Below are positions 17,213 to 62,767 of a stretch of 64,000 nt of DNA, one piece after another (positions within the stretch are counted from its first letter, which is position 1; the number at the start of each line of letters is the position of its first letter). A program made the position numbers and the translations under genes. A model generated the notes under the pieces. That model saw only the letters and a list, made by a program, of their open reading frames with translations. It was not told the origin of the DNA and ran no database searches. This DNA comes from an uncultured Bacteroidota bacterium (GTDB taxonomy: Bacteria > Bacteroidota > Ignavibacteria > UBA10030 > UBA8401), in assembly GCA_963843065.1 (NCBI GenBank), contig CAWJKX010000196.1:1109-65108 (forward strand), in the 5' to 3' direction.

Positions 17213-17233
17213 CACATGAGAGGATGAGAGAGT

Positions 17234-18241: not shown

Positions 18242-18273
18242 CCTCTTTCTGCGAAAGCACATCTCGCGCAAAG

Positions 18274-18336: not shown

Positions 18337-18349
18337 GTGAACAGCTGTA

Positions 18350-23533: not shown

Positions 23534-24113
23534 GTGAAAACATCAAGAAAAGAATCGAATCTGATAAAGAGAGTAATGCTGACTCTTCTTTTCGTTTTCA
23601 CGGCTTCCAACAGTCAGACCTTCGACCTCCTTTCTGCAAAATCAACCGACAAAGTAGCCCAAAGCAAATTTTTTGAGATCGACAGCAACAAAGTCCTCAA
23701 CGAGTACAACTTGTTTGCATTCAACTCACCCGTCTCCCGCATATACGATTCAGTGTTCGAAGTTGCCGGAATTACTGCCGCCGTCTCTGCCGTTAACAAT
23801 TCAAACGTCGGCACAGCGAAAGATCTTTTCCCTCGATCAGAATTATCCGAACCCATTCAATCCGTCAACAACGATTCATTTCAATGTTGGTAAGAGAGCA
23901 AAAGTTTCCGTAGTTTTGTTCGATGCGACGGGGAAGAAAGTAACAACCCTGGTGAATGACAGTAAAGAAGCGGGAAGCTACAATGTGAGATGGAATGGAA
24001 CGTCGGGCAACGGTGCTTCGGTCGCAACCGGAACGTATTTCTGCCGAATGCTTGCAACTGCCGACGACGGAAGCACGACAATGGAAACAAAAAAAATGGC
24101 GTTGATCAAATGA
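23534..24113 (+). CDS. Small secreted protein with T9SS C-terminal sorting domain; one frameshift as assembled
   Basis: ORFs 23534-23893 and 23673-24113 join at T-run 23826-23829. The N-terminus is ...VMLTLLFVFTASNSQ (signal-like). The join reads ...GTAKDLSLDQNYPNPFNPSTTIHFNV...GTYFCRMLA...KKMALIK. Length is 580 nt (3n+1). Confidence 0.7.
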
Positions 24114-32338: not shown

Positions 32339-35300
32339 TTACGGCTTCTTAAACGGCGGCACCGGAGGAAATTTGAACGGATTCTCCGTTGCTTTCTTGA
32401 GAGCTACTTCAATCGCTTTTTCCAACTGCGGGTCTTTTCCCGACATCACGCTTCCAGGATCGTTATCCACCCAAATGTCCGGATCGCCGCCATGGTTTTC
32501 GATAAGCCATTCGCCGGTCTGTCCATAAAAGCCGGTGTTCGATTGTTCTACTTTTCCGTTGTCAATCGTAATTTGCGTGTTCTGGATTCCGACCAAGTCC
32601 GCCCCACGATGTTACTCCTACGATCGTCCCAAGTTTTCTCGCTTTGAAGCTTTCGAGGAAGGCTTCGCCGTCGGACCCGTTGTCTTCGTTCGAGACAACT
32701 ACATAATTTCCGGCTGATGTGCTTCCCGGATAGCGCAGAGGGATCATGCCGTGCAAAGCACTCTGTGCCGTTACTTTTCGTTCAAGTTTATCGATGAGAA
32801 AATATTCAGTCCATCCTCCGCTGTTTCGCCGCACGTCAATGATGATTGCATCCTTGTACCGGAATGCGCGCCAGAATTTATCGAATTCTCCAATGCCGCC
32901 CGCTCCCATCGCATTGATATGCATGTAGCCGACTTTTCCGTCCGTCTCCTTCGATACTTTATTAATATTGTCGGCAAGCCAGCGTGCGTAACGGAGATTA
33001 TTATCGTTTCGGATCGGCTCAACCTCATACACTTTTGATCCCTGCATGGTCGGCTTGGCGTTCACAGTGATGCTGAATTTCTGTCCGCTGCTCATTTGCA
33101 AATACTTATTGTAATCGTCCGGGACTTTAACCTCCGTCCCGTTGATCGCCAACAGATAGTATCCTTCATGAATATCAAAGTCGGGACGGGAAAGAGGACC
33201 TGTAATGCTCGCATTGTATTCCGTCGGTCCGTAGATTTTTTCAAATTTATAAAAGCCGGATTTTTTATCGGCAACGAGGTCTGCGCCGAGCCAGCCCGTG
33301 TAGAGCAGAGGGGAAGCCGGCGAAACCGTTCCAGCATCGCCGCCGCTGATGTACGTGTGCGATACACAAAGCTCTCCCACCATTTGCTGCATCACCCAGT
33401 TCAGCTCTTCGCGAGAACTAAGGCCCGGAATGTATGCCCGGTATTTTTCGCCGATGGCTTTCCAGTCGTGCCCGTACATGTTGGGATCGTAGAAGAAATC
33501 ACGGTACCATCTCCAGCAGTCGTTGAATATCTGATTCCATTCCGCCGCGTAATCCACCGTGTAGACCATTCCGCCAAGGTTCACCTTCTCTCCTGCACTC
33601 CCCGATGAAAATGCCTTATCGAATGATGTAACGAAAACATCGTTCTCTTTTCCGATAATCAACTGTTCGCCGTTGAGCGACAGATCGAAATCGCTTATTT
33701 TGTCCCCGAGCACTGCATCCTTCTTCGCAGTCATATCATACATCATCAACTGCCATTTCGATGCCCCGTTCGGTTTGAAAATCTCTTCGTACTCGTCTTC
33801 TGTAAAGTGATCGATGGCGCACCATGCTACTTTTCCTTTACCCGCTTTAAGGTAGAAATAGTTTCCGGCGGGAACGGGAAGCGGGTACGTGCGTTTCTGC
33901 AGACCGTCAACATCGATATGCACAGTTCCCGATTCTTTTTTCTTCGCATCGCTTTCGTCGGATTCGACAAACGGAGGTTTTTCGCCATCCTTTAATTGAA
34001 CTGCCATGACGGTCTGGGGTGTGCGAATGGTATGGTCATCCTCGTAAAAATCCATGAGGATATCAAAATTCCGACTCGAAACAAAATAAAGGTAGTCGCC
34101 ATTCTGGTCGAAGCAGGGGTAAATATTGTCAAAAAAATCATCGGTCGCAGCGTATTTCTTTCCTTCTTCTACGTTGTAAAGATAGATCTGGCTGTTCCGG
34201 TTATACTGGACGAGGCTGTAGCAAACCCATTTGCTGTCCGGCGACCAATTGTAATCGCTGACCTCCCAATAAAATTCGTCGTTTTTTAGCTGGTTTGATT
34301 CGTCGATTTTTGTCAGCTTTTTCGTTGCAACATCGAGAACAAAGATTGCAAAATCCTTGTTGCCGAAAAGAATCTTTTTCCCGTCCGGGGACCATTTACA
34401 GTGATACACCGTGCGGTCGAGCGTTGTCGTTAACTGTGTCCATTCCCCGCCGGCAGCGCTTTGCGTATACAACTGATACTCTCCGGACTTATCCGAGAAG
34501 AATGCCACTGTTTTTCCGTCGGGTGAAAATTGCGGATATCTCTCGCGCGTGCCGGGCGAATTCGAGAGGTTCTTTGTCTCCCCTTTTCCCGTTGGGACGA
34601 CAAAGAGATCGCCTCGTGCTTCGACGACAATCTTCTTCCCGTCGTTGGAAACATTGACGCTGTGGACGTAATCCTTCGGGTTTATCGGCTTCGTCCGCAG
34701 TGCCCACCGATCGGAGGGACATTCAACTGAAATTTTTCTTACTTCTCCGCTCGCAATGTTCAGCAGATGAATAAATCCATCATGGAGAAATACAATCGTT
34801 TCGCCGTCGGTCGACGGCATCATCGCGTCGACATCGTTGAACGATGTGATCTCGTCGACCTTCTTTGTCGATAAATTTTCTTTGTAAATATTGGAAACGC
34901 CGTTTGTGCGGTCGGAAACAAAATACATCGCGTCGCCGAGCCACATGGGATAACTGTTTTTTCCAACATAATCCGTGACCGGTGTAAAAACTCCGGTCGT
35001 AAAATCATACATCCAGATATCCGGATACTGACCACCTTTATACCGTTTCCAATAATTTTCCTCACTCCCTCTTCGTTGATAAAGCATTTTCTTTCCGTCC
35101 GGCGCAAAACTGCAGAGACGTCCCCGGTCGATAGGAAATCGCTCCGGCGCCGAGCCGTTTTTATTGACAAAATAAAGATTGGGATCTCTCCCGATATAGT
35201 TTTCCGCATACGAACGATAAACGATCCGTTCGCCGTCGGGCGTCCAGCAGACCACTTGTGCGCCTCCGGAATGATACGTAACACGGACAGGTTCTCCCCC

Positions 35301-35585
35301 TTCCGATGGAATAACATACACGTTCGATGAACCGTCGTAACTCCCGGTGAACGCAATCCACTTTCCGTCCGGTGAGAATTTTGCGCTGTACTCCATTCCA
35401 GGAGCGTTTGTAATGCGGCGGGCAATTCCACCCCCCGTTGTTGCCAGCCAGAGATCTCCTTCATATGTGAAGACTATCTTATCTTTATAAATGTCAGGGT
35501 ACCTCATGAAACGCGCCTCGTTCCCAGCGTTCATACTCCCAACAAGAATAAGAAAGAGTGTCAGCGTATTCAGAAGTTGTTTCAT
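32339..35585 (-). CDS. Tricorn-like S41 family protease; one frameshift as assembled
   Basis: ORF 32562-35585 has a signal peptide, repeated PDGK-IAF/TolB-like propeller blades and an S41 core. ORF 32339-32596 (VGIQNTQITIDNGKVEQSNTGFYG...) joins it as ...GVTSWGGL|VGIQN... at GG 32595-96. Length is 3247 nt (3n+1), about 1081 aa. Confidence 0.85.
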
Positions 35586-37074: not shown

Positions 37075-38204
37075 TCAAAGAGCGGCGAGCAATCCGAGCA
37101 GCTCATCGACACAACTGTCCATGCTGAATCGCCGGAGAGCATCTTCGCGAGCAGAATGACCGAGGGAAATTCGGAGTTCATCGTTGTCGAGAATCTTGTC
37201 GATAGCATTGGCAACAGCTTCGACGTTTCGCGGTTCGACGAGCAGTCCGGTTTTGCCGTCTATAATAATTTCCGGCAGCCCGCCGGCATTAGTGGCAATG
37301 ACAGGTTTTTCCATTGCCATAGCTTCAATGACAACAAGACCGTACGTCTCGGCAAACGACGGAAGAACAAAAATATCCAACGCCGCCATGAGCTGTGGAA
37401 CGGCATCGGTAAAAGGAAGAAACTTCACATTTTGATCCATTCCGATCGTCTTGCAAATTTTTTGTAGGTACGCTTTGTAGCCTGGTTCTCCGGCAGTCTC
37501 GTCGCCGGCAATAACTATCAGAATCTCAGGATGGCGTTTCATTAGCTCCGGGGATGGCACGGAGCAGCACCTCCTGCCCCTTGCCGGGGTCGAGGCGCCC
37601 AAGCACACCGATGATTTTTTTATCGTGCGGCAATCCAAAAAAAGACCGGGCTTCAGGCTGGTTGAAATGCGCCGGGACAAACCGGTGAAGGTCTGTGCCC
37701 AGCGGAACAACTTTTACTTTCGCGCCGGCCATCCGGGTACACGCAAGCACATTCTCTCTCATACTATTCGTAAGAGTTATCCAGAGCGAGAGCTTTGAAA
37801 AAATCCATGTATGCCAAAAATCGCGTTTGTTGTGCCGTGAGTCCATCTGCTGATAAAATACAAATTTTGCCGAGGCGCGAAAAGTACGCTGCAAGCGATG
37901 CAAGATGAATATCCTGCGATTGCATCAATACGACTCGATCGATGTTCTTGTCCTGAAGAATTTTCGCAAGATGGAATGCAGCCGGGATGTCGCCGTACTT
38001 CCACCGCGGCGTTAGTGTAGCCAGGTCGAGGCCTAATTCGAGAGCGCGCTGGTGAAGCGGAGAGGATGGCGGGACGATAACCATCGCATACACTCCCTTG
38101 GTTTTCATACCCTGCGCAATGCGGAGCGTAGATAATTCAAGCCCCCCCAGCGAACGTGAAAAGCAAACCAAAGCGATCCGTTGTTGAGAACTTGTCATAC
38201 TCAT
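37075..38204 (-). CDS. Glycosyltransferase family 4; two frameshifts as assembled
   Basis: ORFs 37764-38276, 37526-37903 and 37075-37710 join at 37880-83 and 37550-53 (4-nt homopolymers). N-terminus RIALVCFSRSLGGLELSTLRIA. C-terminus VLPSFAETYGLVVIEAMAMEKPVIATNAGGLPEIIIDGKTGLLVE. Length is 1130 nt (3n+2). Confidence 0.8.
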
Positions 38205-38698: not shown

Positions 38699-39589
38699 CT
38701 ATTTCGCCATCGAAGTATCACGGACTGCCAATTGCACTTTTGCCCACATTGTAAACGGCTCTCCCTGTCCGCCGGAGGATGATCTTCCACCACCGCCGCC
38801 GCCGCCCCGGTGTCCTCTTCCACCTCCACCCATGCCACTACCGCCGTAACCTCCGCCGCCGCCCATGCCGCCCCCCCCTCCGTAGCCGCCACCTTCAGAA
38901 ACGCCTTCCGAGGGCTTAGGCGAAGTTTTGTTCTGTGAAGTTTCAGCGCCAACTCCGATCAACGCGCCCGATTTTGTTCCGATCGCAAACGGACTGGAAG
39001 TTTTATCCGAAAGCGGAACTTTCAATTCATAGACAAGTACGCCGTTCGCTATTTTATACTTGGCTTCAATTCCCCCCGCTTCCGCGAACGTCATAGGGTG
39101 GTGATCATCTTTTCCCGGCCCTTCAATTTCGAGGTCGTCGGTCGGGATGTCTTTCTGAACGGTCGCAGACTGATTGTCTGCATCCGTCCCGTTATCTTTC
39201 CAGGGGCGCACAGCATCGAAACCCAGCGGATAGTGAACTCCAAATTTCTCATCTTTGCCCCCTTCGACATCAAACCAAAATGTAATTCCCCGCCTCGAGA
39301 CCTGATTTCGAAGGTTCCGATTGGTCGAGACGAGTCCTATATAAATAAATTCGGAATCGTTCATTATCCCGATCGAAGTTTCTTTGTCGTCAAGGAGCAC
39401 TAAGGAATTTCCCCACTCCGTATTTTTGCCGTCAATAACAACCGGACGGTTACGCCAATGGCTCTTGAGGTCGATCATTCCGCAGCCGGCCATGAAACAA
39501 AGAGCCATGATAAGCCCGTACCGAAAATTAATTCCCCGGGACCGTGCGCCGTCTCGTAACGCTGCGGCCATTGGTGCAAATGCTTTCAT
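38699..39589 (-). CDS. Probable lipoprotein with a Gly/Met/Tyr-rich C-terminal low-complexity tail
   Basis: About 296 aa from the ATG at 39589 (...LIMALCFMAGCGM). A globular beta domain follows (VVIDGKNTEWGNSLVLLDD...ITFWFD). The tail is GGGYGGGGGMGGGGGYGGSGMGGGGRGHRGGGGGGGRSSSGGQG, ending EPFTMWAKVQLAVRDTSMAK. Confidence 0.6.
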   Translation of the reverse strand: MKAFAPMAAALRDGARSRGINFRYGLIMALCFMAGCGMIDLKSHWRNRPVVIDGKNTEWGNSLVLLDDKETSIGIMNDSEFIYIGLVSTNRNLRNQVSRRGITFWFDVEGGKDEKFGVHYPLGFDAVRPWKDNGTDADNQSATVQKDIPTDDLEIEGPGKDDHHPMTFAEAGGIEAKYKIANGVLVYELKVPLSDKTSSPFAIGTKSGALIGVGAETSQNKTSPKPSEGVSEGGGYGGGGGMGGGGGYGGSGMGGGGRGHRGGGGGGGRSSSGGQGEPFTMWAKVQLAVRDTSMAK

Positions 39590-39843
39590 CGTGTAGATAC
39601 TTTCTCTGCAATTCAGGGTATAAGAAATTTGAGGATTACAATGATGCCCGTTTTTTCCGTGTGCCGGCACGACAAGAAACACAAACCTCCGGCAATCTGG
39701 CAACAAAAACGGATCACCCATTCCTGTGATTAGAACATCATCTCATAACAAAGGTTTAACTTTATAAACCGTGTTTTGAGAATGATTGATCCATAACCGG
39801 CTTATTTGCCTTCACCCTTTTTTGCATGTCGATGTTGACCGAC

Positions 39844-41184
39844 TCAACGGTGTTTCATGCTTTTGACGAACTCGCTCAAAATTGTGCGAAGGCTTGGCTC
39901 TCCGATTTCTTCCAGTTCGTACGTAACGCGGAGTGCCGGTTTTTTAATTTTCACAATGCGTTTCAGGTCGATCGGCGTTCCGATAATAACGACATCGCAC
40001 GGAACCTTATTGATCGTTGACTCAAGGTCCCGTATTTGCTGATCGCTGTAGCCCATCGCCGGCAGCAGTATGCCGATTTTGGGATATGTCTGATACGTTT
40101 TTTTGATTTCTCCCGTCGCATACGGACGCGGGTCGATAATCTCCGCCGCGCCAAATTTTTGAGCCGCAACGGTCCCGGCTCCGATTCTCATTTCACCATG
40201 AGTCAGCGTCGGCCCGTCTTCGATCACGAGCACCCTTTTTCCAGCCACCATCTCGCTCCGCTCGAGCATAATCGGCGATGCTGCATCGACGATTTTCGCT
40301 TTTGTATTGACACTGCGAATGTTTTCACGAAGTTTAATCACCGCTTCCGGCGTCGCAGAATCGATCTTGTTGATAATGACGACATCGGCCATGCGAAGGT
40401 TTGCTTCGCTCGGATAATATGTCAATTCATCGCCGGCTCGCAGCGGGTCCGCTACGACAATATGAACGTCAGGTTTATAGAACGGAAGATCGTTGTTCCC
40501 GCCGTCCCAAATGATGATATCGGCGTCGTTCTCGGCCTGCCGGAGAATCGCCTCATAGTCTACCCCCGCATAAATAATCGTTCCGCTGACGATGTGCGGT
40601 TCGTATTCCTCCATCTCTTCAATCGTGCATTTATGTTTTTTCAAATCGGCAACGGCCGCAAAACGCTGCACTTTTTGCTTTTCGAGATCGCCGTACGGCA
40701 TCGGGTGGCGGACGGCCGCAACGCGGAACCCGAATTCATGCAGCAATTTCGCTACCTTCCTGCAGGTTTGACTTTTACCGCTTCCCGTGCGCACCGCACA
40801 GACGGAAATCACCGGCTTGCTGCTTTCAATCATCGTTTCGCGGGCGCTTAAAAGTTTAAAATGCGCTCCCGCAGCGATCGCGCGCGAGCCGATGCTCATC
40901 ACGCGGCGGTACGGAACATCGCTGTATGAAAAGACAACCTCGTCCACGCTGTGTGTAACGATCAACTGCTCAAGGTCTTTTTCCTCGTAGATTGGAATTC
41001 CTTTCGGGTACAACGCTCCCGCCAGTGAGGCCGGGTATTTCCTTCCGGCAATATTGGGAATTTGTGCCGCGGTAAAAGCGACGACGTTATACTGCTCGTT
41101 GTCGCGGTAGACCATATTGAAGTTATGAAAATCACGTCCCGCCGCTCCAACGATAATTGTGTTGATCCGTTTGTGTTCAGACAT
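39844..41184 (-). CDS. COG2403-family P-loop protein (often annotated GTPase / cyclic 2,3-diphosphoglycerate synthase-like)
   Basis: 446 aa. N-terminus IIVGAAGRDFHNFNMVYRDNEQYNVVAFTAAQIP. P-loop AVRTGSGKSQT. Also VRHPMPYGDL and CTIEEMEEYEP. Confidence 0.7.
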   Translation of the reverse strand: MSEHKRINTIIVGAAGRDFHNFNMVYRDNEQYNVVAFTAAQIPNIAGRKYPASLAGALYPKGIPIYEEKDLEQLIVTHSVDEVVFSYSDVPYRRVMSIGSRAIAAGAHFKLLSARETMIESSKPVISVCAVRTGSGKSQTCRKVAKLLHEFGFRVAAVRHPMPYGDLEKQKVQRFAAVADLKKHKCTIEEMEEYEPHIVSGTIIYAGVDYEAILRQAENDADIIIWDGGNNDLPFYKPDVHIVVADPLRAGDELTYYPSEANLRMADVVIINKIDSATPEAVIKLRENIRSVNTKAKIVDAASPIMLERSEMVAGKRVLVIEDGPTLTHGEMRIGAGTVAAQKFGAAEIIDPRPYATGEIKKTYQTYPKIGILLPAMGYSDQQIRDLESTINKVPCDVVIIGTPIDLKRIVKIKKPALRVTYELEEIGEPSLRTILSEFVKSMKHR

Positions 41185-41217: not shown

Positions 41218-42414
41218 TCAGGACAGCGATTGAATAGCTTTTGCTATTCGGGCGCATGCCCAGTCGATTTCCTTTTTTGTGATGATAAGAGGCGGAGCGA
41301 AACGAATGACATTTTCGTGCGTCTCTTTGCAGAGAATATTTTCCTTCATAAGCGCTTCACAGTAGGGGCGCGCATTTGTGTCGAGGACGAGCCCGATCCA
41401 CAACCCTTTTCCCCGGATTTCTTTTATATGGGGATTTTTGATAGCACGCAGTTTTTCGATAAAATAATTCCCGAGTTTCAGAGACCGGGCAATCAGTTTT
41501 TCTTTCACCAATACTTTCAGCGCTGCGCACGCAACGGCAGCTGCAAGCGGGTTGCCGCCGAACGTCGAACCGTGATCTCCCGGGGTGAAGACGCCGAGAA
41601 TTTCTTTGCTCGACAGCACGGCTGAGACAGGGTAAAAACCGCCTGCAAGCGCTTTCCCGATAATTACCATGTCGGGGCGGATATTTTCGTATTCAAACGC
41701 GAACAGTTTGCCGCACCGGCCAAGGCCGGATTGAATTTCATCGGCAATAAAGAGAACGTTGTTTTCCTTACACAGCCGTGCCGCCTCCCGTAAATATCCC
41801 TCCGGCGGAAGGACGATTCCGGCTTCGCCTTGAATCGGTTCTACAAGAAACGCCGCCGTATTTTTGTTGATGGCTCGCTTCAATTCACCGGCGTCGCCGT
41901 ACTTCACAACCGGGAATCCGGGTGTGAACGGGCCGAAGCCGTTTCGGTATTGTGCCTCGGTAGAGAAACTGATGATTGTTGTCGTCCGTCCGTGGAAGTT
42001 GTCCGTCGCGCAGATGATCTCCGCTTTATTTTCCGGAATTCCTTTCACGGTGTAACCCCACTTCCGCGCCGCCTTGACGGCAGTTTCCACCGCTTCCACG
42101 CCGGTATTCATCGGCAGCGAAGCTTCGTAGCCCGTTAACTCATGAAGCATTTTGTATAACAACGGAAGCCGGTCGTTGCGAAACGCCCGGCTCGTCAACG
42201 TAACTTTTTTCGCCTGGTCGATAAACGCCTTAAGAATAGCGGGGTGACAATGCCCCTGGTTGACGGCAGAATACGCCGCAAGGCAATCGAGATATTTCTT
42301 CCCGTCGACGTCAGTCACCCAAGAACCTTTCGCTTTGTGCACGACAACGTCGAGAGGACGGTAGTTGTGAGCGCCGTATCGCTCTTCGAGTGAGATATAG
42401 TCTTGAGTCTTCAT
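41218..42414 (-). CDS. rocD: Ornithine aminotransferase (class III PLP aminotransferase)
   Basis: 398 aa from the ATG at 42414. YGAHNYRPLDVVVHKAKGSWVTDVDGKKYLDCLAAYSAVNQGHCHP is OAT-like. Also DEIQSGLGRCGKLFAFE and GDHGSTFGGNPLA. Confidence 0.85.
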   Translation of the reverse strand: MKTQDYISLEERYGAHNYRPLDVVVHKAKGSWVTDVDGKKYLDCLAAYSAVNQGHCHPAILKAFIDQAKKVTLTSRAFRNDRLPLLYKMLHELTGYEASLPMNTGVEAVETAVKAARKWGYTVKGIPENKAEIICATDNFHGRTTTIISFSTEAQYRNGFGPFTPGFPVVKYGDAGELKRAINKNTAAFLVEPIQGEAGIVLPPEGYLREAARLCKENNVLFIADEIQSGLGRCGKLFAFEYENIRPDMVIIGKALAGGFYPVSAVLSSKEILGVFTPGDHGSTFGGNPLAAAVACAALKVLVKEKLIARSLKLGNYFIEKLRAIKNPHIKEIRGKGLWIGLVLDTNARPYCEALMKENILCKETHENVIRFAPPLIITKKEIDWACARIAKAIQSLS

Positions 42415-42577
42415 AGATGAGTTCCATGCTCTTAGTGAGAGAATATGCCAAAACAATAATGAACCGCAGCAGGAACAACGATGAAGAAGTCAGGTCAAAT
42501 TGAGGTAATATGCGACCAGCGCTGTATCGAAAAGCGCGGGTGTTGGAGTCCCGGCATGATAAGATTTTAATGCAGTG

Positions 42578-43495
42578 TTATTCATGTTCAAACAAAAGCG
42601 TAAGCAATGCCATACGAACGTATAAACCGTTGCGCGATTGGCGAAAATAGACCGCCCGAGGATCATCGTCCACCCCGGGGTCGATTTCCACCGACCGGGG
42701 AAGCGGATGCATGATAACGGCGTTCGACTTCATTTTTTTCAGCACACCGGCATTGATGTTGTACGCAGAAAGGTCGATATCGCTCCGCAGGAGCCGCTCG
42801 CGGTCGATGTGCGTTTGATACACAACGTCGATCTGAGAAAGAATTTTTTCCGGGCTTTCCGCCAATTCGTACTCAACTCTATGATGTTCCAAGTACGCCA
42901 AGATATCCGGTTTGATTTGCATTTCCTTCGGTGCAATGAAATAGAGCTTCACACGTTCAAATTTACTAAGCAGGTACGCCAGCGAGCGCGCTGTGCGCCC
43001 TTCATCCAGGGCTCCGATAAGCGCAACCGAAAGACCGTTCAATGCTTTACATTCTCGGTAGATAGTGTAAAGGTCGAGGAGCGCCTGCGTCGGATGCTGG
43101 CCGCCGGCCCCTTCACCCGCATTGATGACCGGAACAGCTGCAACGGCAGCAGCTCGCTTCGCAGCGCCTTCTTCCGTATGACGGAGAACGATGACATCGC
43201 TGCAGCTTGAGATGATACGAATTGTATCTTCCAGATGCTCACCCTTCACCTCGGAAGAGAATTCATTCGCCCGTTCCGTCGAGAGAACGCTCCCGCCAAG
43301 CCTATGCATCGCCGCTTCGAACGAAAACCGTGTTCTGGTTGATGGCCGGTAAAACAGCGTCGCCATGATTTTATTTTCATAGTCGCGCGTCCCTCCTCGG
43401 ACAACGACCTTTTCCATCTGCTGCGTCCTTTCAAACAACTCCATCAACAGCGGAACCGTAAACTGTTGTGATTCGATGACGTGCTTCAGGTGCAT
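42578..43495 (-). CDS. Aspartate carbamoyltransferase-fold protein (PyrB-like) with atypical second-substrate residues
   Basis: 305 aa. Has PSTRTRFSFEAA, VLRH, GGQHPTQALLD, GRTARS and MHPLPR. The canonical T-R-x-Q-x-E-R position reads QTHIDRER. No pyrI gene is adjacent. Confidence 0.75.
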   Translation of the reverse strand: MHLKHVIESQQFTVPLLMELFERTQQMEKVVVRGGTRDYENKIMATLFYRPSTRTRFSFEAAMHRLGGSVLSTERANEFSSEVKGEHLEDTIRIISSCSDVIVLRHTEEGAAKRAAAVAAVPVINAGEGAGGQHPTQALLDLYTIYRECKALNGLSVALIGALDEGRTARSLAYLLSKFERVKLYFIAPKEMQIKPDILAYLEHHRVEYELAESPEKILSQIDVVYQTHIDRERLLRSDIDLSAYNINAGVLKKMKSNAVIMHPLPRSVEIDPGVDDDPRAVYFRQSRNGLYVRMALLTLLFEHE

Positions 43496-43516: not shown

Positions 43517-44458
43517 TCAGGGAAAAATATGCGTACCGGTTTTTCCATCCACCGCATCGATAAGACATTCGAATGAAGTGATAATCGCTTCCTTTCCCCC
43601 TTTTTTGAGAAAGCGTATCGCCGATTCGACTTTGGGCCCCATACTGCCGGCTGCAAACTGCTTTTCAGCGAGATGCTTTTCCATTTCTTTCACCGTTGTT
43701 TTCTCCACCGCGCGCTGCGCCGGTTTTTTGAAATCAAGATAGACTTGTTTCACATCAGTGCTGATGATGAAGAGGTCGGCGGCCAGACTCGACGCGAGAA
43801 GCGCTGAGGCGCGGTCTTTATCGATTACTGCTTCAGAGCCAAGAACGAGATAGTGCTCCTTTTCGATGACAGGAATTCCACCGCCTCCGACGGCGATAAC
43901 AATCATGTTAAGGTCAAGAATTTTACGGATAATATCCTGTTCGAATACTTCAACAGGTTCCGGTGAAGGAACAACTCTCCGGTAGCCGCGTGCAGAATCT
44001 TCGACAATATTCCAGCCGAGAGTTCTTTGTTTTTCTTCCGCGTCTGTTTTTGAATAGAACGGTCCGATCGGTTTTGTTGGATTTTTGAATGCAGGATCGT
44101 TTTCATCGACACGTACTTGCGTGAGGACAGTCATGACCGGTGTGAAGAGGCCGATCTGGCGCAATTCATATTCCATTGCGCGCTGAATAATATAGCCGAT
44201 CTCGCTCTGCGTCGTCGCAACGCAGATGTCGAGAGGATGCGTGTATACTTCACCGGCCGCGCGCTCCGAACGAAGGAGAGCGGCACCGACCTGAGGACCG
44301 TTGCCATGCGTAATCACCAGCCGCCATCCGCGGGCGACCAGCTGTACGATGTTTCGCGCTGTCGCGTGGGCGTTTGCAAGCTGTTCGCCAATCGTCCCTC
44401 GCTCGCCCGCATGAATAAGAGAATTTCCGCCGATCGCTATGAGAGCCGTTTTGGACAT
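43517..44458 (-). CDS. arcC: Carbamate kinase
   Basis: 313 aa. IAIGGNSL, ITHGNGPQVG, VIAVGGGGIPV and the C-terminus SAIRFLKKGGKEAIITS. Confidence 0.9.
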   Translation of the reverse strand: MSKTALIAIGGNSLIHAGERGTIGEQLANAHATARNIVQLVARGWRLVITHGNGPQVGAALLRSERAAGEVYTHPLDICVATTQSEIGYIIQRAMEYELRQIGLFTPVMTVLTQVRVDENDPAFKNPTKPIGPFYSKTDAEEKQRTLGWNIVEDSARGYRRVVPSPEPVEVFEQDIIRKILDLNMIVIAVGGGGIPVIEKEHYLVLGSEAVIDKDRASALLASSLAADLFIISTDVKQVYLDFKKPAQRAVEKTTVKEMEKHLAEKQFAAGSMGPKVESAIRFLKKGGKEAIITSFECLIDAVDGKTGTHIFP

Positions 44459-44588: not shown

Positions 44589-45515
44589 CTACCCCTTCAT
44601 CAACTGGTACATGATCGCCTTCTGAGCATGGAGCCGGTTCTCCGCTTCGTCGAAGACCACAGATTGCTTCGAGTCGATCACTTCGTCCGTTACCTCGTCG
44701 CCCCGGTGAGCGGGCAAACAGTGCATAAAAATTGCGTCCTTCTTCGCCTTGGACATTAATGCGGTGTTCACTTGATACGGAAGAAAGATTTTTTTGCGTT
44801 CTTCAGCTTCCGATTCCTGTCCCATCGATGCCCAGACATCCGTGTACACAACGTCGGCATTTTTCACTCCCTCAAAAGGATCATGCACAACTTCGATCCG
44901 TGCACCTGTTGCTTTTGCATCGTCTGTTGCTTGTTCCGTCGCGGTCAAGCTAGGCTCATAGCCGGCAGGGCACGCTACGGTTACGCTCACACCAAGCCGT
45001 GCGCCTGCAAACATAAGCGAATGGGCAACGTTGTTGCCGTCGCCCACGTAGCAGAGCTTCAATCCTTTCAGTTTCTTCTTTTTCTCCTGGATTGTCATGA
45101 AGTCTGCCATGGCCTGGCACGGATGAGAGTAGTCGGTGAGGCCATTGATCACCGGAATCGACGCATGCTTTGCCATGTCGATTACAATTTGATGGGCAAA
45201 CGTTCGAATCATGATTCCCTGTACCATCCGCTCAAGGTTTTTTGCAACATCGTAAACCGATTCGCGTTTTCCAAGGCTGATTTCCGCCGGCGACAAATAG
45301 AGCGAGAAGCCGCCGAGCTGCTGGATGCCGACGTCAAACGATGTGCGCGTGCGCAACGACGGTTTTTCAAAAATGAGCGCAAGTGTCTTGCCCTCCAGCG
45401 CTTTACTATATTTTTTCCTGTTAGCTTTCATCTTGCGGGCAAGAACAAATGTCGCGAGAATTTCTTTCGAGGTCATATCCCTAACTGAGAGAAAATCGTG
45501 TGCTTTCACGGACAA
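44589..45515 (-). CDS. argF: Ornithine carbamoyltransferase
   Basis: 308 aa. FEKPSLRTRTSF, HPCQAMADF, DVWASMGQE (D-x-x-x-SMG) and FMHCLPAHRGDEV. Confidence 0.9.
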   Translation of the reverse strand: MSVKAHDFLSVRDMTSKEILATFVLARKMKANRKKYSKALEGKTLALIFEKPSLRTRTSFDVGIQQLGGFSLYLSPAEISLGKRESVYDVAKNLERMVQGIMIRTFAHQIVIDMAKHASIPVINGLTDYSHPCQAMADFMTIQEKKKKLKGLKLCYVGDGNNVAHSLMFAGARLGVSVTVACPAGYEPSLTATEQATDDAKATGARIEVVHDPFEGVKNADVVYTDVWASMGQESEAEERKKIFLPYQVNTALMSKAKKDAIFMHCLPAHRGDEVTDEVIDSKQSVVFDEAENRLHAQKAIMYQLMKG

Positions 45516-45547: not shown

Positions 45548-47584
45548 TTACTTCAACAGGGTCATTTTTTTTGATTGAATGAATTGGCCGGCCCGCAAGC
45601 GGTAGAAATATATCCCGCTCGGCAGATTGCCGGCGTTCCATGGTATTGTGTACGTGCCCGGATTCATCGTCGTATTCGCAAGTGTTGCTACTTCTTTTCC
45701 AAGAACATCATATATTTTCAACGTGATAAGCCGTGCATCGGCAATCGAAAATTCAATACGCGTTGCAGGGTTAAATGGGTTGGGATAATTTTGTTCAAGC
45801 TGATAGCTCAATGGATGGAGACTGGCACCAGACGTTCTCGTCGACGCCACCGTACTATCTTCTTTCAAAACGATATCATTATTGGGGTCGAATACGACAG
45901 CTGTGACGCTCTTGTTGAACATGAAACTGAAATCTTGTTTGTTTGCAGTGTTCATCACTCGGACGGTCGTGTCCTGGCCGCTGCCAAACGAGAATTTCAA
46001 TTCAACCGGCATAGTAAAAAACTGAGCGTTTGTTTGGATCTGATTCATCGTCACGCCAACTTCATGCCCTGCAGGATCTATCGAGTACGTGTTTTGGTAA
46101 ACCGGATGGTTTGCCCCCTTGACCCATTCATCAAAGAACCAATGCAGGTCCTGGCCCGATACATTGCTTATCTTTTGAATGAAGTCATTGGTCGTCGCGT
46201 TCTTCAGCCGAAAATTTATTGAGTCGGCCGCATACCCTTTTATCGAAGCAAAGAAGAGAGAATCGCCCAGCACATAGCGAAGCATGTGAAGAACACAGGC
46301 TCCCTTGTCATAGGTGATTGCAACGTTGAACATTGTATTGACATCGGGTGTTGATACAGCCCATTCGGGGTTGTAAATGGGCCAGCCCGGATTCTCATAG
46401 AGATATTGGCTTGCATCGAGGAGTATTGTATTTTTGTACGCCGGGTAGTCTCCAGTGTATTCGTCCCACAACGCCTCACAATATGTGGCAAAACCCTCAT
46501 TGAGCCAAACGTCGGCCCACGTCCCGGGGCTAATCATATCTCCGAACCAATGATGTGCAAACTCATGCGACACCAGATCCTCATCCCAGCTATTCGGCTC
46601 CAGGCTAACGAGTGTCTGATTTTCCATGCCGCCCCAAATAAAGCCCGCTCCCTGTGCGATCGTAGCCAAACCAATTTTTTCGAATGGATACTCGCCAAAG
46701 AGCGCTGAGTAGTGTGTTGCCATCGGAAGAATTAATGTTTCGATGTCCTTAAGAGATGCAACAGATTCTCCGCTGTTCCAGTAAAACAGAACCGGAATGC
46801 TGTCGTTCGCGTTTGAAAGTTTTCTCCAATACTCTTTGTCAAGATTGTAATCGACTTTGCCCGTCATTACCATCAAGTACGTTGCAATCGGGTCGCGGCT
46901 TATCCAGTGGTAATAAATCGAGCCGCCTACGTTTGTCGAGTCGGCCAACCTCCCGTTAGACCCCAATTTTACCGTTGCAGGAACTTTTGCCGTTAAATCG
47001 AGCGTCGCTTTGTCCGATGGACGGTCCCAGCAGGGGAACCATTTCCTCGCCCCTTCCGGTTCACAATCGGTAAAAACCATTCCGTTGAACGTATAAAAAG
47101 CGCCGTCTGCAATATTGTTATGACGGTAATATATTTTTACACTGAGAGTGTCGTTCGGTTGATACGTCGAATCAAATGTGATCGTTAGAATATCTGCTGC
47201 TTGTGAAAATTTCTCGGCGGGTAATGAAACGGAATCAATCATCAACGATGCGTTAACAGCGTTCAATTGGATTGCGTTGAGCGCGGAATCAACTTTAAAT
47301 GTTATTGTATTTGTTGCGGTATACGAATTAGGGTACGGCGAGATGAAACAACTATCGATATCGAGGAAGAGTGTATAATTCAGGACGTCAAACGAATGTT
47401 GCGGCGTATTGGGGGATAATTCTTTCATAAACTGACCGTACTGCTTTATCCGTTTCAGCGAACAACGTTCCGCCCCGCTCAAGTGCCGCTCCTGCGAAAA
47501 CATCACGTTTGCACACAAGATTATTGTCACAATGAAATTCTTGAACAACCCAAAATCTCTTGTTAAATACCGATGCTTCATCAT
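45548..47584 (-). CDS. M1 family aminopeptidase with T9SS C-terminal sorting domain
   Basis: 678 aa. GGMENQT, HEFAHHWFGD and WLNEGFATY. C-terminus LEQNYPNPFNPATRIEFSI...IYFYRLRAGQFIQSKKMTLLK. Confidence 0.9.
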   Translation of the reverse strand: MMKHRYLTRDFGLFKNFIVTIILCANVMFSQERHLSGAERCSLKRIKQYGQFMKELSPNTPQHSFDVLNYTLFLDIDSCFISPYPNSYTATNTITFKVDSALNAIQLNAVNASLMIDSVSLPAEKFSQAADILTITFDSTYQPNDTLSVKIYYRHNNIADGAFYTFNGMVFTDCEPEGARKWFPCWDRPSDKATLDLTAKVPATVKLGSNGRLADSTNVGGSIYYHWISRDPIATYLMVMTGKVDYNLDKEYWRKLSNANDSIPVLFYWNSGESVASLKDIETLILPMATHYSALFGEYPFEKIGLATIAQGAGFIWGGMENQTLVSLEPNSWDEDLVSHEFAHHWFGDMISPGTWADVWLNEGFATYCEALWDEYTGDYPAYKNTILLDASQYLYENPGWPIYNPEWAVSTPDVNTMFNVAITYDKGACVLHMLRYVLGDSLFFASIKGYAADSINFRLKNATTNDFIQKISNVSGQDLHWFFDEWVKGANHPVYQNTYSIDPAGHEVGVTMNQIQTNAQFFTMPVELKFSFGSGQDTTVRVMNTANKQDFSFMFNKSVTAVVFDPNNDIVLKEDSTVASTRTSGASLHPLSYQLEQNYPNPFNPATRIEFSIADARLITLKIYDVLGKEVATLANTTMNPGTYTIPWNAGNLPSGIYFYRLRAGQFIQSKKMTLLK

Positions 47585-47647: not shown

Positions 47648-48744
47648 CTAAAACTTTGAAAGTACCAGGGCATTTGTGGGATATTGCTTGACAAGTTTGA
47701 GAACGGCGAGCATGGCTTCCCGTGGAGGCATTTTCGCAATGGACCGCCTGAGCGCCTGGTATGCGGCCGTTTCAGAGCCAAAAAGGAGTTCTTCACGTCG
47801 TGTTCCCGATACAGGAAGATTGATAGCGGGAAAAATTCTTTCATTTGCCATACCACGGTCGAGCACAAGTTCCATATTTCCTGTCCCTTTGAACTCCTGA
47901 AAAATCAATTCATCCATGCGCGAGTTCGTTTCAATCAGCGCCGTAGCGATAATCGTCAGCGAGCCGCCCTGTTCACAGTTGCGCGCCGCACCGAAAATGC
48001 GTTTGGGAATTTCAAGTGCACGGATGTCGACGCCGCCGGACATGGTGCGCCCGCTGCTTTTCTGATGAATGTTGAATGCCCGTCCAAGGCGAGTAAGCGA
48101 GTCGAGCAGCACAACAACATCTCTTCCTGTTTCAACTTTACGTTTTGCGTATTCGAGGACCAATTGCGCGAGCCGGACATGGCTCCCGCGGTCGCTGTCG
48201 CTTGAACTCGCAAACACTTCTCCCGAAATCGAACGGCGCATATCGGTCACTTCTTCCGGGCGTTCGTCAATTAATAAGACAAGAAGATCAATCTCCGGAT
48301 TGTTGATGCTGATCGCGTGCGCGAGTTGCTGCATGAGCATTGTCTTTCCAGCTTTGGGGGGAGAAACGATAAGCGCCCGCTGTCCTTTACCAAGCGGACA
48401 GAACAGGTCTACGATGCGCATGGAGATATTGCTCTTCTCCCCTTCAAGCCGGATGATTTCGTTCGGTGAAATAACTTCATACGACGAAAATTCTTTGACG
48501 GTCTTCCACTCTTCAGGAGCCAAACCATTAACGCGTTCGATTGTCACGCCCTGCGGTGTTACCTTTTCCAGATGCATCCACTGTTCCTTCAACTAAAACT
48601 CCAGTCCGAAGAGCGAGGTGCTGGATAAGAGAGAGCGGAGACATGCACATCCTTGTCGGTGTGGCTGAGACCGTGCGAGAGCGTCCGAACGAAAGCGCGC
48701 CGCTGCGAATCAATTTCAAGTATGCCGGAGAAAGGTACTGACAT
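47648..48744 (-). CDS. rho: Rho-like transcription termination ATPase lacking the N-terminal helix bundle; two frameshifts as assembled
   Basis: The ATG at 48744 gives [36 protein letters not shown]. The second frame reads [19 protein letters not shown]. The third frame (track ORF 47648-48592) has [37 protein letters not shown] and [11 protein letters not shown]. Length is 1097 nt (3n+2). Confidence 0.7.
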
Positions 48745-49086
48745 GATGAATATGTAAAAAATCAAACGGATGAAAATGCCGAGGCAGGGCGGTATTTCTT
48801 GAAACCCCTATTGAACAGTGTGCATCGCCAAAAAGGGACGCTTCAGGGTAAATAATCAAGAAGCTGTCTCAGCGATTATTCGTCAGAGGAAATCCGACGG
48901 GTTTCGGCTTATTGTTAGCAAGGCAGGAATCTGGGGGATAGCATTCTTACTTACGCACACAACCCATCGAGCCGCAGCTTCTTCGAGACGGCAAACCTCT
49001 GTGAGACTTATTGCACCGTCCTCTTCTACAAAGGTACGCGACTTCCCGGTCAATCGCAAACGGAGATACGTTTTGTACAGGACATT

Positions 49087-62596: not shown

Positions 62597-62767
62597 CTTG
62601 ACCTCCTTCTTGATATTCAGGACTTTCCCTGCCGCGCTCCTGAATTGACTAATCCGTTGCTTCGGCATTCACATGCAACTTGGAACAAACACACGTCGTA
62701 CGAATACTATTGATTTCTCGCTGAGCATCTCCTCCTAAGACGCGGTTCGGCTGGTACAGCTGAGAAC

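What the first reader, a model, noticed from the sequence alone, without database searches (positions are those of the whole stretch)
42578..43495. PyrB-fold carbamoyltransferase with a rewired second-substrate pocket, sitting 21 bp downstream of carbamate kinase
The 305-aa protein keeps everything a transcarbamylase needs for carbamoyl phosphate: PSTRTR, LRH, HPTQ and HPLPR. It also keeps the Arg of GRTxxS, which is the E. coli R167 equivalent. In canonical ATCases the aspartate side-chain carboxylate is held by the invariant T-R-x-Q-x-E-R motif (E. coli MTR229-V-Q231-KER, recalled from memory). At that position this protein reads Q-T-H-I-D-R-E-R, so Arg becomes His and Gln becomes Asp. Replacing a cationic and an amide ligand with His and Asp argues against aspartate as the acceptor. 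It hints instead at an acceptor with a neutral or cationic distal group. There is no pyrI and no other pyr gene nearby. The neighbours are arcC, argF and rocD. This fits an uncharacterised member of the transcarbamylase superfamily rather than housekeeping PyrB.
Basis: partly seen in the sequence, partly recalled or inferred. Interest (0 to 1): 0.7.

Follow-up and report, generated by a model that had tools for sequence, protein, structure and literature searches.

The report
Carbamate-kinase-linked ATCase look-alike in arginine cluster
This gene is annotated as the pyrimidine enzyme aspartate carbamoyltransferase, but it belongs to a distinct, well-conserved family that has lost the aspartate-binding residues and always sits directly after carbamate kinase inside an arginine-breakdown gene cluster, so it probably does some other, still unknown, carbamoyl-phosphate-related job.

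Summary
The 305-aa ORF lies on the minus strand at 42578-43495. It keeps every carbamoyl-phosphate (CP) motif and Arg167, and reads YQT-H-I-D-RER where E. coli PyrB has YMT-R229-V-Q231-KER, with no indel.

The protein belongs to a tight, monophyletic family ("ATCL", all members at least 64% identical) found in Bacteroidota/Ignavibacteria and Acidobacteriota MAGs. Carbamate kinase is directly upstream in 146 of 147 loci. The usual module is OTC, CK, ATCL and ornithine aminotransferase, plus a 446-aa protein that fits the recently described arginine synthetase ArcE. The closest canonical ATCase (55-56% identical) sits in an ordinary pyr operon instead.

Across the family the CP site is invariant, while the aspartate-site positions 50, 84, 162, 231 and 233 are variable or fixed differently in each clade. 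His229 occurs only in a shallow subclade. This is relaxation of the aspartate site, not one rewired His/Asp pocket.

dN/dS of 0.01-0.08 shows the protein is functional. Most likely it is a CK-coupled transcarbamylase with a non-aspartate substrate. A CP-binding non-catalytic partner and an atypical ATCase are not excluded. Whether the same genomes also carry a canonical pyrB could not be tested.

The parts
42578..43495 (-). ATCL: 305-aa ATCase-fold protein (the finding). The CP site is intact and the aspartate site is altered (Arg50, Lys84, Ala162, Arg167, His229, Asp231).
   Evidence: ORF and translation. Pfam OTCace_N + OTCace. TIGR00670 295.7 bits against 236.95. Alignment with E. coli PyrB. 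Family analysis.
42794..42820 (-). 240s-loop motif YQTHIDRER (residues 226-234), in place of canonical Y-x-T-R-x-Q-x-E-R.
43235..43261 (-). 80s loop FSSEVKGEH (residues 79-87). Lys84 is kept in this protein but is E/K/D/Q/R/P/H/S across the family.
43328..43357 (-). CP loop LFYRPSTRTR (residues 47-56). STRTR is intact and Glu50 is replaced by Arg.
42983..43018 (-). IGALDEGRTARS (residues 160-171). Asp162 is replaced by Ala and Arg167 is kept.
43517..44458 (-). Carbamate kinase (arcC), 313 aa, ending 21 bp upstream of ATCL. It is the obligate upstream neighbour of ATCL.
   Evidence: TIGR00746 378.5 bits against 358.25. Directly upstream in 146/147 loci.
44589..45515 (-). Ornithine carbamoyltransferase (argF/arcB type), 308 aa, with DVWASMG and HCLP motifs.
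   Evidence: NF001986 445 bits against 306, TIGR00658 420 against 281. Upstream of CK in 106/108 loci.
41218..42456 (-). Ornithine--oxo-acid aminotransferase (rocD). The ORF as listed starts at TTG 42456; the likely true start is the ATG at 42414 (MKTQDY...).
   Evidence: TIGR01885 545 bits against 378. Sequence. Directly downstream of ATCL in 101/126 loci.
39844..41184 (-). 446-aa P-loop protein, inferred to be an ArcE-type arginine synthetase homologue.
   Evidence: No Pfam or NCBIfam family at 1e-5. Weak cobW/CbiA/MeaB P-loop hits. The only PDB hit is cDPG synthetase 9sxb, E = 8e-5. Homologues are named 'predicted GTPase' or 'cyclic 2,3-diphosphoglycerate synthase'. This matches the description of ArcE/TK2200 homologues in PMC11032458. 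Present in 59/71 loci with long flanks.
45548..47584 (-). Secreted M1 aminopeptidase with a T9SS sorting tail, 32 bp upstream of argF. It is a neighbour only in the window's own clade.
   Evidence: Pfam. Contexts.

Best explanation
ATCL is a functional, ATCase-derived paralogue that works together with carbamate kinase. It is a fifth component of a bacterial arginine-catabolic module made of an ArcE-like arginine synthetase, OTC, CK, ATCL and ornithine aminotransferase. It is not the housekeeping PyrB. Proposed mechanism: it binds carbamoyl phosphate (or phosphate plus a ureido compound) in a fully conserved CP site. It then catalyses reversible carbamoyl transfer between phosphate and an amine acceptor that is not recognised in the way aspartate is. 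It thereby shares one CP pool with OTC and CK, most plausibly phosphorolysing a second ureido substrate so that CK can make ATP. Shown here: family identity, conserved linkage to CK and the arginine module, an intact CP site, loss or relaxation of the aspartate-site residues, and purifying selection. Inferred: catalysis, the direction of the reaction, the identity of the acceptor, and that the 446-aa protein is ArcE.
For: (1) Context. CK is directly upstream in 146/147 loci, OTC upstream in 106/108, OAT directly downstream in 101/126. With long flanks, OAT is present in 66/71 and the ArcE-like gene in 59/71. This holds across Bacteroidota/Ignavibacteria and Acidobacteriota genomes and JGI metagenomes. 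(2) The nearest canonical RxQ ATCase (55-56% identity) lies in a pyrB-PRTase-carAB-pyrK-pyrD operon, so the context switch coincides with the active-site change. (3) CP-site residues S52, T55, R105, H134, Q137 and HPLPR, plus R167, are invariant in 82 non-redundant members, and T53 and R54 are kept in 81 of 82. Of the 42 sites that are near-invariant in canonical ATCases, only 84, 231 and 233 have more than 1 bit of entropy. Positions 50 and 162 are also changed. (4) dN/dS is 0.01-0.08, equal to or lower than for CK, OTC, OAT and the ArcE-like gene. (5) ATCL is monophyletic (100/100 NJ). Its nearest neighbours P0135 and P0137 are other diverged ATCase-branch proteins that also sit directly after a carbamate kinase, one of them in an amidase/amidohydrolase/AllH cluster. 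That is the usual layout of catabolic transcarbamylases. (6) In L008 the CK-ATCL pair is detached from the arginine genes and lies next to XDH-like, SsnA-like and YgfK-like genes, so the pair is a separable unit. (7) The literature describes the ArcE/ArcB/ArcC pathway and the role of CP from it (PMC11032458, PMC13260591). The review says RxQxER occurs in all known ATCases and anticipates undiscovered catabolic ATCase-branch enzymes (PMC4581275).
Against: No family-wide, newly fixed polar residue marks a new acceptor pocket. Positions 84 and 50 vary even between close relatives, and position 231 reverses charge between clades. That is unexpected for residues that contact a defined substrate and fits a non-catalytic CP binder at least as well. 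No gene that would produce a second ureido substrate recurs in the module. Arg167 and (mostly) Arg229, the two carboxylate binders for aspartate, are retained, so weak aspartate use is not excluded. The sister relation to P0135 and P0137 could be long-branch attraction in a simple NJ tree. No biochemical data exist for any member.
Confidence: 0.42

Rival explanations
1. ATCL is a non-catalytic (pseudoenzyme) CP-binding partner of carbamate kinase. An ATCase-type trimer binds, protects or hands over labile carbamoyl phosphate between OTC and CK, or senses CP and regulates the pathway. It might form a trimer/dimer assembly with CK analogous to ATCase-PyrI or ATCase-DHOase dodecamers.
For: This is the simplest reading of the conservation pattern: the CP site and scaffold are invariant while the second-substrate and domain-closure residues (50, 84, 231, 233) drift freely. 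No canonical-invariant site is re-fixed family-wide. Genetic coupling to CK is near-absolute (146/147) and persists when the arginine genes are absent (L008). No second ureido-producing enzyme is in the module. The family has its own invariant, probably surface, positions (P15, G34, D38, Y39, D164, R181). From my own knowledge, not tested here: ATCase and OTCase binding strongly slows CP decomposition, and inactive paralogue subunits exist in this pathway family, such as the P. aeruginosa pseudo-DHOase (PMC7053772 was listed but not read).
Against: Residues that polarise the carbamoyl group for catalysis (T55, R105, H134, Q137), the Leu-Pro of HPLPR, and the non-CP residues R167 and R229 are all kept. 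A mere binder would not obviously need them. The CK-linked relatives sit in clusters that look enzymatic. No interaction data exist.
Confidence: 0.25
2. ATCL is a real, kinetically unusual aspartate carbamoyltransferase. It diverts arginine-derived CP into pyrimidine synthesis (or runs in reverse on carbamoyl-aspartate). It may be the only ATCase of these genomes.
For: It passes the NCBIfam ATCase equivalogs TIGR00670 and NF002032. It is 55-56% identical to canonical enzymes. It keeps both aspartate carboxylate-binding arginines (R167 always; R229 in 70 of 82). In Thermococcus kodakarensis the ArcE/ArcB pathway is the physiological CP source for pyrimidines (PMC13260591), so a pyrB in such a cluster would make sense. 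I could not show that a canonical pyrB coexists in the same genomes.
Against: Lys84, Asp162, Gln231 and Glu50 are lost or variable. From memory, replacement of each strongly impairs E. coli ATCase. RxQxER is reported in all known ATCases (PMC4581275). Of 112 full-length nearest representatives, 104 keep K84+R229+Q231, and 103 of those 104 keep D162. The family was detected in only 228 stretches among 185,579 species genomes, so it cannot be the general ATCase of either phylum. Its closest canonical relatives are in pyr operons while ATCL never is.
Confidence: 0.18
3. ATCL is a decaying duplicate or an assembly artefact with no function.
For: The window does contain frameshifted genes: Rho and a glycosyltransferase are each split over three frames.
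Against: The ORF is intact and full-length in about 160 loci. dN/dS is 0.01-0.08. 80 of 305 sites are invariant across two phyla. The variant residues are shared by independent assemblies.
Confidence: 0.01

Closest known systems
Aspartate carbamoyltransferase catalytic chain (PyrB; E. coli, Arabidopsis PYRB 6ypo)
   Same: Same unknotted two-domain fold and length. It is 39% identical to E. coli PyrB and scores 315.6 bits against plant PYRB. STRTR, R105, H134, Q137, R167 and HPLPR are identical. It passes the NCBIfam ATCase cutoffs.
   Different: It fails both ATCase signature motifs: FxExSTR (E50 is variable) and RxQxER (Q231 is lost, E233 is variable, R229 is His in this subclade). K84 and D162 are not conserved. 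The 240s loop has a 3-residue deletion and there is a 1-residue insertion before QHPTQ. It is never next to pyrI or pyr genes and is always next to carbamate kinase.
Ureidoglycine transcarbamylase (UGTCase, Rubrobacter xylanophilus; ATCase branch; described in PMC4581275)
   Same: It is an ATCase-branch paralogue mis-annotated as (pseudo-)ATCase, with the beta-carboxylate binders replaced, a catabolic logic, and CP passed to carbamate kinase.
   Different: UGTCase has an H(T/S)LP motif, Ser/Lys at the 229/231 equivalents, and keeps the Lys84 equivalent. ATCL has HPLP, R/H229 and a variable 231, and does not keep Lys84. The context is arginine catabolism, not purine catabolism (except L008).
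Catabolic OTCase or PTCase with carbamate kinase (arginine deiminase and agmatine deiminase pathways)
   Same: The operon logic is the same: a transcarbamylase next to arcC, yielding ATP from a ureido compound.
   Different: Those enzymes belong to the OTCase branch (DxxxSMG, HCLP). The module here already contains such an OTCase (44589-45515), and ATCL is an additional gene of the ATCase branch.
Arginine synthetase pathway ArcE-ArcB-ArcC of Thermococcus kodakarensis (PMC11032458, PMC13260591)
   Same: An ArcE-like P-loop protein is clustered with OTC and CK, with no arcA in the module. Arginine serves as a source of ATP, ornithine and CP.
   Different: The described pathway has three enzymes and no ATCase-like member. 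The bacterial module adds ATCL and an ornithine aminotransferase. ArcE identity here is inferred and was not aligned to TK2200.
YgeW knotted carbamoyltransferase with YqeA carbamate kinase (enterobacterial purine-fermentation locus)
   Same: It is a transcarbamylase of unknown substrate paired with a carbamate kinase. In L008 the CK-ATCL pair lies beside XDH-like, SsnA-like and YgfK-like genes, reminiscent of that locus (the comparison with the E. coli locus is from memory).
   Different: ATCL is unknotted and scores only 25-27 bits on the YgeW models, against cutoffs of 453-500. The purine-type context occurs in 1 of about 159 loci.

Membership tests
Aspartate carbamoyltransferase (PyrB, EC 2.1.3.2) | Two-domain OTCace_N + OTCace fold and a family HMM score above the curated cutoff | tested here: met
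   Pfam 141 and 99 bits. TIGR00670 295.7 against 236.95, NF002032 268.1 against 263.
Aspartate carbamoyltransferase (PyrB, EC 2.1.3.2) | CP-binding residues S52-T53-R54-T55, R105, H134, Q137 and the HPLP loop | tested here: met
   S52, T55, R105, H134, Q137 and the HPLP loop are invariant in 82 non-redundant family members, and T53 and R54 are kept in 81 of 82.
Aspartate carbamoyltransferase (PyrB, EC 2.1.3.2) | RxQxER motif of the 240s loop (R229 and Q231 bind the beta-carboxylate of aspartate); 'found in all known ATCases' (PMC4581275) | tested here: not met
   H-I-D-R-E-R in the window, ungapped against E. coli. Family-wide, position 231 is D/R/N/E/K/Y/Q/H and position 233 is E/D/S/T/A/G/V/K.
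Aspartate carbamoyltransferase (PyrB, EC 2.1.3.2) | FxExSTR motif (Glu50, the interdomain bridge) | tested here: not met
   F-Y-R-P-STR in the window. Family-wide it is K/R/E/A/N/Q/T/S.
Aspartate carbamoyltransferase (PyrB, EC 2.1.3.2) | Lys84 from the neighbouring chain's 80s loop | tested here: inconclusive
   Lys is present in the window protein, but the position is at the 92nd percentile of variability in the family (E36, K17, D8, Q8, R4 and others).
Aspartate carbamoyltransferase (PyrB, EC 2.1.3.2) | Asp162 (partner of Gln231) | tested here: not met
   Ala162 in the window and the Bacteroidota-type clade, Glu162 in the Acidobacteriota type. Canonical set: 103 of 104 are Asp.
Aspartate carbamoyltransferase (PyrB, EC 2.1.3.2) | Genomic association with pyrimidine genes (pyrI, pyrC, carAB, pyrD and others) | tested here: not met
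   None in the window or in about 2 Mb of flanks of 159 loci. The nearest canonical relative is in a pyr operon.
Aspartate carbamoyltransferase (PyrB, EC 2.1.3.2) | Catalyses CP + L-aspartate to N-carbamoyl-L-aspartate; sole or housekeeping ATCase of the genome | not testable with these tools
   This needs an enzyme assay, pyrB complementation and whole-genome scans of OY970334.1, OY970265.1 and CAWGZY01.
Ureidoglycine transcarbamylase (UGTCase) | H(T/S)LP motif; Ser and Lys at the 229/231 equivalents; Lys84 equivalent retained; purine-degradation context | tested here: not met
   HPLPR is invariant, 229 is R/H, 231 is variable and 84 is variable. Features are taken from PMC4581275. A purine-type context occurs only in L008.
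Ornithine/putrescine transcarbamylases (OTCase branch) | DxxxSMG loop and HCLP motif | tested here: not met
   Both are absent. OTC models score 130-160 bits against cutoffs of 281-306. The neighbouring gene at 44589-45515 has both motifs.
Knotted transcarbamylases (AOTCase, SOTCase, YgeW) | Family HMM above cutoff; proline-rich loop and extended 120s loop | tested here: not met
   YgeW models give 25-27 bits against 453-500, and the AOTCase model 58 against 288.
Arginine synthetase pathway module (ArcE-ArcB-ArcC) | ArcB (OTC) and ArcC (CK) present and clustered | tested here: met
Arginine synthetase pathway module (ArcE-ArcB-ArcC) | ArcE (TK2200-family arginine synthetase) present | tested here: inconclusive
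   The 446-aa P-loop protein matches the published description: 'putative GTPase', weak cDPG-synthetase similarity, next to arcB/arcC, reported in Acidobacteria and Bacteroidota. I had no TK2200 sequence to align.

The most novel reading that the evidence does not exclude
ATCL is a previously unrecognised functional class within the ATCase branch and an obligate partner of carbamate kinase. It would be one of two things. Either it is a new phosphorolytic transcarbamylase that harvests ATP from a still unidentified ureido compound. Or it is a CP-holding or CP-channelling subunit that makes the bacterial arginine synthetase pathway a five-component system (ArcE, OTC, CK, ATCL, OAT). On either reading, the family (228 relatives detected among the species-representative genomes scanned) is currently mis-annotated as aspartate carbamoyltransferase.
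Probability: 0.6. Interest if true: 0.75.

Novelty: new variant of a known kind. Interest (0 to 1): 0.62.

Why it matters
The arginine synthetase pathway was described only in 2024, and only in an archaeon. This locus shows a widespread bacterial version in soil and sediment Acidobacteriota and Ignavibacteria-like Bacteroidota, with two extra conserved genes, one of them an ATCase look-alike.

If ATCL is an enzyme, it is a new transcarbamylase specificity and possibly a new substrate-level ATP-yielding reaction. If it is a CP-binding partner, it would be, as far as I know, the first pseudo-transcarbamylase and a handle on how labile carbamoyl phosphate is managed.

There is also a practical consequence. 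Automated annotation (NCBIfam equivalog, IMG) calls these proteins aspartate carbamoyltransferase and calls the ArcE-like neighbour 'cyclic 2,3-diphosphoglycerate synthase' or 'GTPase'. That distorts metabolic reconstructions of pyrimidine and arginine metabolism in abundant uncultured soil lineages.

Tried and rejected
1. Indel-shift explanation for the missing R/Q. Rejected: the alignments to Arabidopsis PYRB and to the real E. coli PyrB are ungapped at the motif.

2. 'H-x-D is the defining pocket of a new enzyme'. Rejected at family level: His229 is restricted to a subclade, and Asp231 is specific to one clade.

3. UGTCase, OTCase/PTCase and YgeW membership. Rejected by motifs and HMM scores.

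4. Charge-swap salt bridges between positions 50/84 or 84/231. The combinations of residues show no consistent pairing. Only the pair 162/231 co-varies by clade.

5. Search for a canonical pyrB, carAB or other pyr genes in the window and in about 2 Mb of flanks of 159 loci. None was found. The extra hit in L053 is a duplicated 3' remnant of ATCL itself.

Cluster-name look-ups and context look-ups gave no taxonomically useful seed. I therefore left the third homologue search unused and the same-genome question open.

7. Search for additional conserved neighbours that would point to a second ureido substrate. Only the five module genes recur. A DDAH-like gene appears in a minority of Acidobacteriota loci.

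8. The xanthine-dehydrogenase context of L008 as a general clue. It did not recur in 80 further metagenome loci.

9. Promoter and terminator scans. Counts were at the level of shuffled controls, so they were uninformative.

10. Supplementary files of the arginine synthetase paper. None are held.

11. Structure prediction was not run. The tool returns no coordinates, so pocket geometry and docking could not be evaluated, and the fold is already certain from sequence.
Full report
**The object.** The finding's coordinates hold an intact 305-aa ORF on the minus strand (42578..43495). It has the two transcarbamylase Pfam domains. It passes the NCBIfam ATCase equivalogs: TIGR00670 at 295.7 bits against a 236.95 cutoff, and NF002032 at 268.1 against 263. 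Its best solved-structure match is Arabidopsis PYRB (6ypo, 315.6 bits).

I fetched the real E. coli K-12 pyrB and aligned it. The query is 39% identical to it. By coincidence of compensating indels, the query has the same residue numbers as mature E. coli PyrB at 50, 84, 105, 134, 137, 162, 167, 229, 231, 233 and 234. The motif YQT-H229-I-D231-RER aligns without gaps to YMT-R229-V-Q231-KER. Carbamate kinase ends 21 bp upstream, and OTC and ornithine aminotransferase flank the pair.

**A discrete family, not a lone oddity.** The 120 closest database proteins (72-98% identity) are all from Bacteroidota or Ignavibacteria MAGs. A scan of one genome per species gave 228 relatives. The window itself comes from MAG contig CAWGZY010000002.1. 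The best 80 loci span Bacteroidota/Ignavibacteria and Acidobacteriota (Terriglobia, Vicinamibacterales) at 64-100% identity.

In an exhaustive search of 1.84 billion 50%-identity representatives, the whole family is represented by one full-length sequence (P0121, 443 bits) plus a few truncated ones. The score then drops to 336 bits for canonical ATCases. In a neighbour-joining tree with 66 canonical representatives and an OTC outgroup, the family (which I call ATCL) is monophyletic in 100 of 100 bootstraps.

**Context.** In the 80 genome loci and 80 further JGI metagenome loci (159 usable; a few contigs occur in both sets), the neighbours are as follows:
- Carbamate kinase lies directly upstream of ATCL in 146 of 147 loci with enough upstream DNA.
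- OTC lies upstream of CK in 106 of 108.
- Ornithine aminotransferase lies directly downstream in 101 of 126.
- Where both flanks are long, OAT is present in 66 of 71 and a 446-aa protein in 59 of 71.

The 446-aa gene lies downstream of OAT in the Bacteroidota type and upstream of OTC in most Acidobacteriota-type loci. No other gene recurs across both phyla. By contrast, the closest canonical relative (P0271, 55-56% identical, with RxQ intact) lies in a classical pyrB-PRTase-carAB-pyrK-pyrD operon. Neither the window nor about 2 Mb of flanking DNA contains a pyr gene, pyrI, carAB or a second ATCase.

**The 446-aa neighbour.** It has no Pfam or NCBIfam family at 1e-5. It gives weak P-loop hits to cobW, CbiA and MeaB. 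Its only PDB hit is cyclic 2,3-diphosphoglycerate synthetase, 9sxb, at E = 8e-5. Sources name its homologues 'predicted GTPase' or 'cyclic 2,3-diphosphoglycerate synthase'.

This is how Michimori et al. describe homologues of arginine synthetase ArcE (TK2200). They are hypothetical proteins or 'putative GTPases', weakly similar to cDPG synthase, P-loop NTPase-like, found near arcB/arcC, and present in Acidobacteria and Bacteroidota (PMC11032458). I infer that the module is a bacterial version of the arginine synthetase pathway, extended by OAT and ATCL. I could not align the protein to TK2200 itself. A 2026 paper shows that ArcE and ArcB supply carbamoyl phosphate for pyrimidines in T. kodakarensis (PMC13260591). 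That keeps a true-ATCase reading alive.

**What changed in the active site.** I compared 82 non-redundant ATCL sequences (under 90% identity) with 104 canonical representatives. The 104 are those of 112 full-length representatives that carry K84+R229+Q231, so those three positions are invariant in the comparison set by construction.
- S52, T55, R56, S80, R105, H134, Q137, R167 and the HPLPR loop are invariant in ATCL, and T53, R54 and T168 are each kept in 81 of 82.
- Of the 42 sites that are near-invariant in canonical enzymes, only three have more than 1 bit of entropy in ATCL: 84 (E36, K17, D8, Q8, R4, P3, H2 and others; 92nd percentile of variability), 231 (D54, R17, N3, E3, K2 and others) and 233.
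- Glu50 (91 of 104 canonical) is K/R/E/A/N/Q/T/S.
- Asp162 (103 of 104 canonical) is Ala in the Bacteroidota-type clade and Glu in the Acidobacteriota-type clade. It co-varies with position 231: Asp231 goes with Ala162, and Arg/Lys/His231 goes with Glu162.
- His229 occurs in only 11 of 82 members, the shallow subclade around the window. Arg is kept in 70.
- No canonical-invariant site is re-fixed to one new residue family-wide.
- ATCL also shares a 3-residue deletion in the 240s loop and a 1-residue insertion before QHPTQ. It has its own invariant positions: P15, G34, D38, Y39, G131, Q133, D164, R170 and R181.

[quoted passage not shown] From memory, replacing K84, D162, Q231 or E50 severely impairs E. 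coli ATCase.

**It is functional.** Pairwise dN/dS for ATCL is 0.01-0.08 at dS of 0.06-1.6. This is the same as or lower than for the adjacent CK, OTC, OAT and ArcE-like genes (0.02-0.17). In addition, 80 of 305 sites are invariant across two phyla. Rho and a glycosyltransferase in the window are frameshifted, but ATCL is intact and its variant residues recur in independent assemblies.

**Relatives that share the CK linkage.** The two sequences nearest to ATCL in the tree, P0135 and P0137, are other diverged ATCase-branch proteins with altered 80s and 240s loops. Both sit immediately after a carbamate-kinase-family gene. P0135's upstream neighbour is 49% identical to the window's CK, and P0137 lies in an amidase/amidohydrolase/AllH cluster. 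The sister relationship could be long-branch attraction, but the shared CK adjacency does not depend on the tree.

In one genome locus (L008, ATCL 83-84% identical to the window's and with H229/D231) the CK-ATCL pair is detached from the arginine genes. It lies next to XDH-type subunits, an SsnA-like amidohydrolase and a YgfK-like oxidoreductase. This did not recur in the other loci. The CK-ATCL pair is therefore the conserved core.

**Interpretation.**
- The specific argument, that a His/Asp pair designs a pocket for a neutral or cationic acceptor, does not survive family-level comparison. The signal is relaxation of the aspartate site with clade-specific repair of the 162/231 pair.
- My preferred explanation (0.42) is a CK-coupled transcarbamylase that uses a non-aspartate acceptor or ureido substrate and shares the CP pool with OTC and CK.
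- The conservation pattern fits a non-catalytic CP-binding partner of CK almost as well (0.25).
- An atypical true ATCase that drains arginine-derived CP into pyrimidines remains possible (0.18). This is mainly because I could not test whether the same genomes carry a canonical pyrB.
- A decaying duplicate is excluded.

**Comparison with known systems and novelty.** ATCL meets the fold, HMM and CP-site criteria of ATCase but fails the RxQxER, FxExSTR, Asp162 and genomic-context criteria. It should not be filed as PyrB. It is also not UGTCase (which has H(T/S)LP, Ser/Lys at 229/231 and keeps Lys84), not an OTCase or PTCase, and not a knotted YgeW-type enzyme.

Full-text searches found only the two ArcE papers on this pathway, and nothing I read in them mentions an ATCase-like member. 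I rate it a new variant of a known kind: a new, widespread, mis-annotated subfamily with an unknown role in a pathway described only recently. Interest is 0.62.

Noticed in passing
window 39844-41184 (-): A 446-aa P-loop protein with no Pfam or NCBIfam family. Databases call its homologues 'predicted GTPase' or 'cyclic 2,3-diphosphoglycerate synthase'. It fits the published description of arginine synthetase ArcE (TK2200 family) and is probably mis-annotated in public records.
   Followed up: partly
window 47651-48807 (-) and 37105-38108 (-); also 20401-22933 (+): Rho and a GT4 glycosyltransferase are each spread over three reading frames compared with the intact orthologues in L001. A TonB-dependent receptor also appears split into two overlapping ORFs. 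These are likely indel errors of a long-read MAG assembly, or pseudogenes.
   Followed up: partly
L008 11369-19778: In this one Bacteroidota MAG the CK-ATCL pair is not followed by OAT and ArcE. Instead it is followed by XDH-type 2Fe-2S/FAD and MoCo subunits, an SsnA-like amidohydrolase and a YgfK-like Fe-S/FAD oxidoreductase. This gene set is reminiscent of the enterobacterial ygeW/yqeA purine-fermentation locus.
   Followed up: partly
L053 13064-13330: A duplicated 3' remnant of the ATCL gene (…LHPLPRTVELD…YVRMALLT…) sits downstream of two inserted dehydrogenase/reductase genes that separate ATCL from OAT. It is a scar of a rearrangement inside the module.
   Followed up: yes
L072 3995-4852; also L136, L152, L159, L162-L164: A DDAH-like (dimethylarginine dimethylaminohydrolase family) gene follows OAT in a subset of Acidobacteriota-type modules. 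This suggests methylated arginines may also be fed into the pathway as citrulline.
   Followed up: no
L088 683-1603 (P0135) and L089 8001-8942 (P0137): Two other diverged ATCase-branch proteins have altered 80s and 240s loops and even altered STRTR (SMRTR, SIRTR). Each lies directly after a carbamate-kinase-family gene. P0137 is in a cluster with two amidohydrolases, an amidase and an AllH-like gene. They are possibly further uncharacterised catabolic transcarbamylases.
   Followed up: partly
L059 and L078 (contigs DATEGI010000105.1 and DATEGI010000138.1): Two CK-ATCL copies fall in the same Terriglobales MAG (SMAG_U8781). This is either a duplicated module or mixed strains in the bin.
   Followed up: no
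window 38699-39721 (-): A 340-aa protein without any Pfam family has a long Gly-rich C-terminal tract (GGYGGGGGMGGGGGYGGSGMGGGGRGHRGGGGGGG). It is conserved next to the module in L001 (75% identity).
   Followed up: no
window 23990-26530 (+), 32562-35585 (-), 45548-47584 (-), 4944-5858 (-), 61337-62668 (-): The window has a high density of proteases (S8 subtilase, tricorn/S41-type, M1 aminopeptidase) and of proteins with T9SS sorting tails. This is consistent with a peptide-degrading lifestyle that would supply arginine.
   Followed up: no
window 15830-19645 (+): Aspartokinase (with ACT domains), aspartate-semialdehyde dehydrogenase and an Orn/DAP/Arg-decarboxylase-fold enzyme lie in a row. 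It is probably a lysine-biosynthesis cluster and unrelated to the finding.
   Followed up: no
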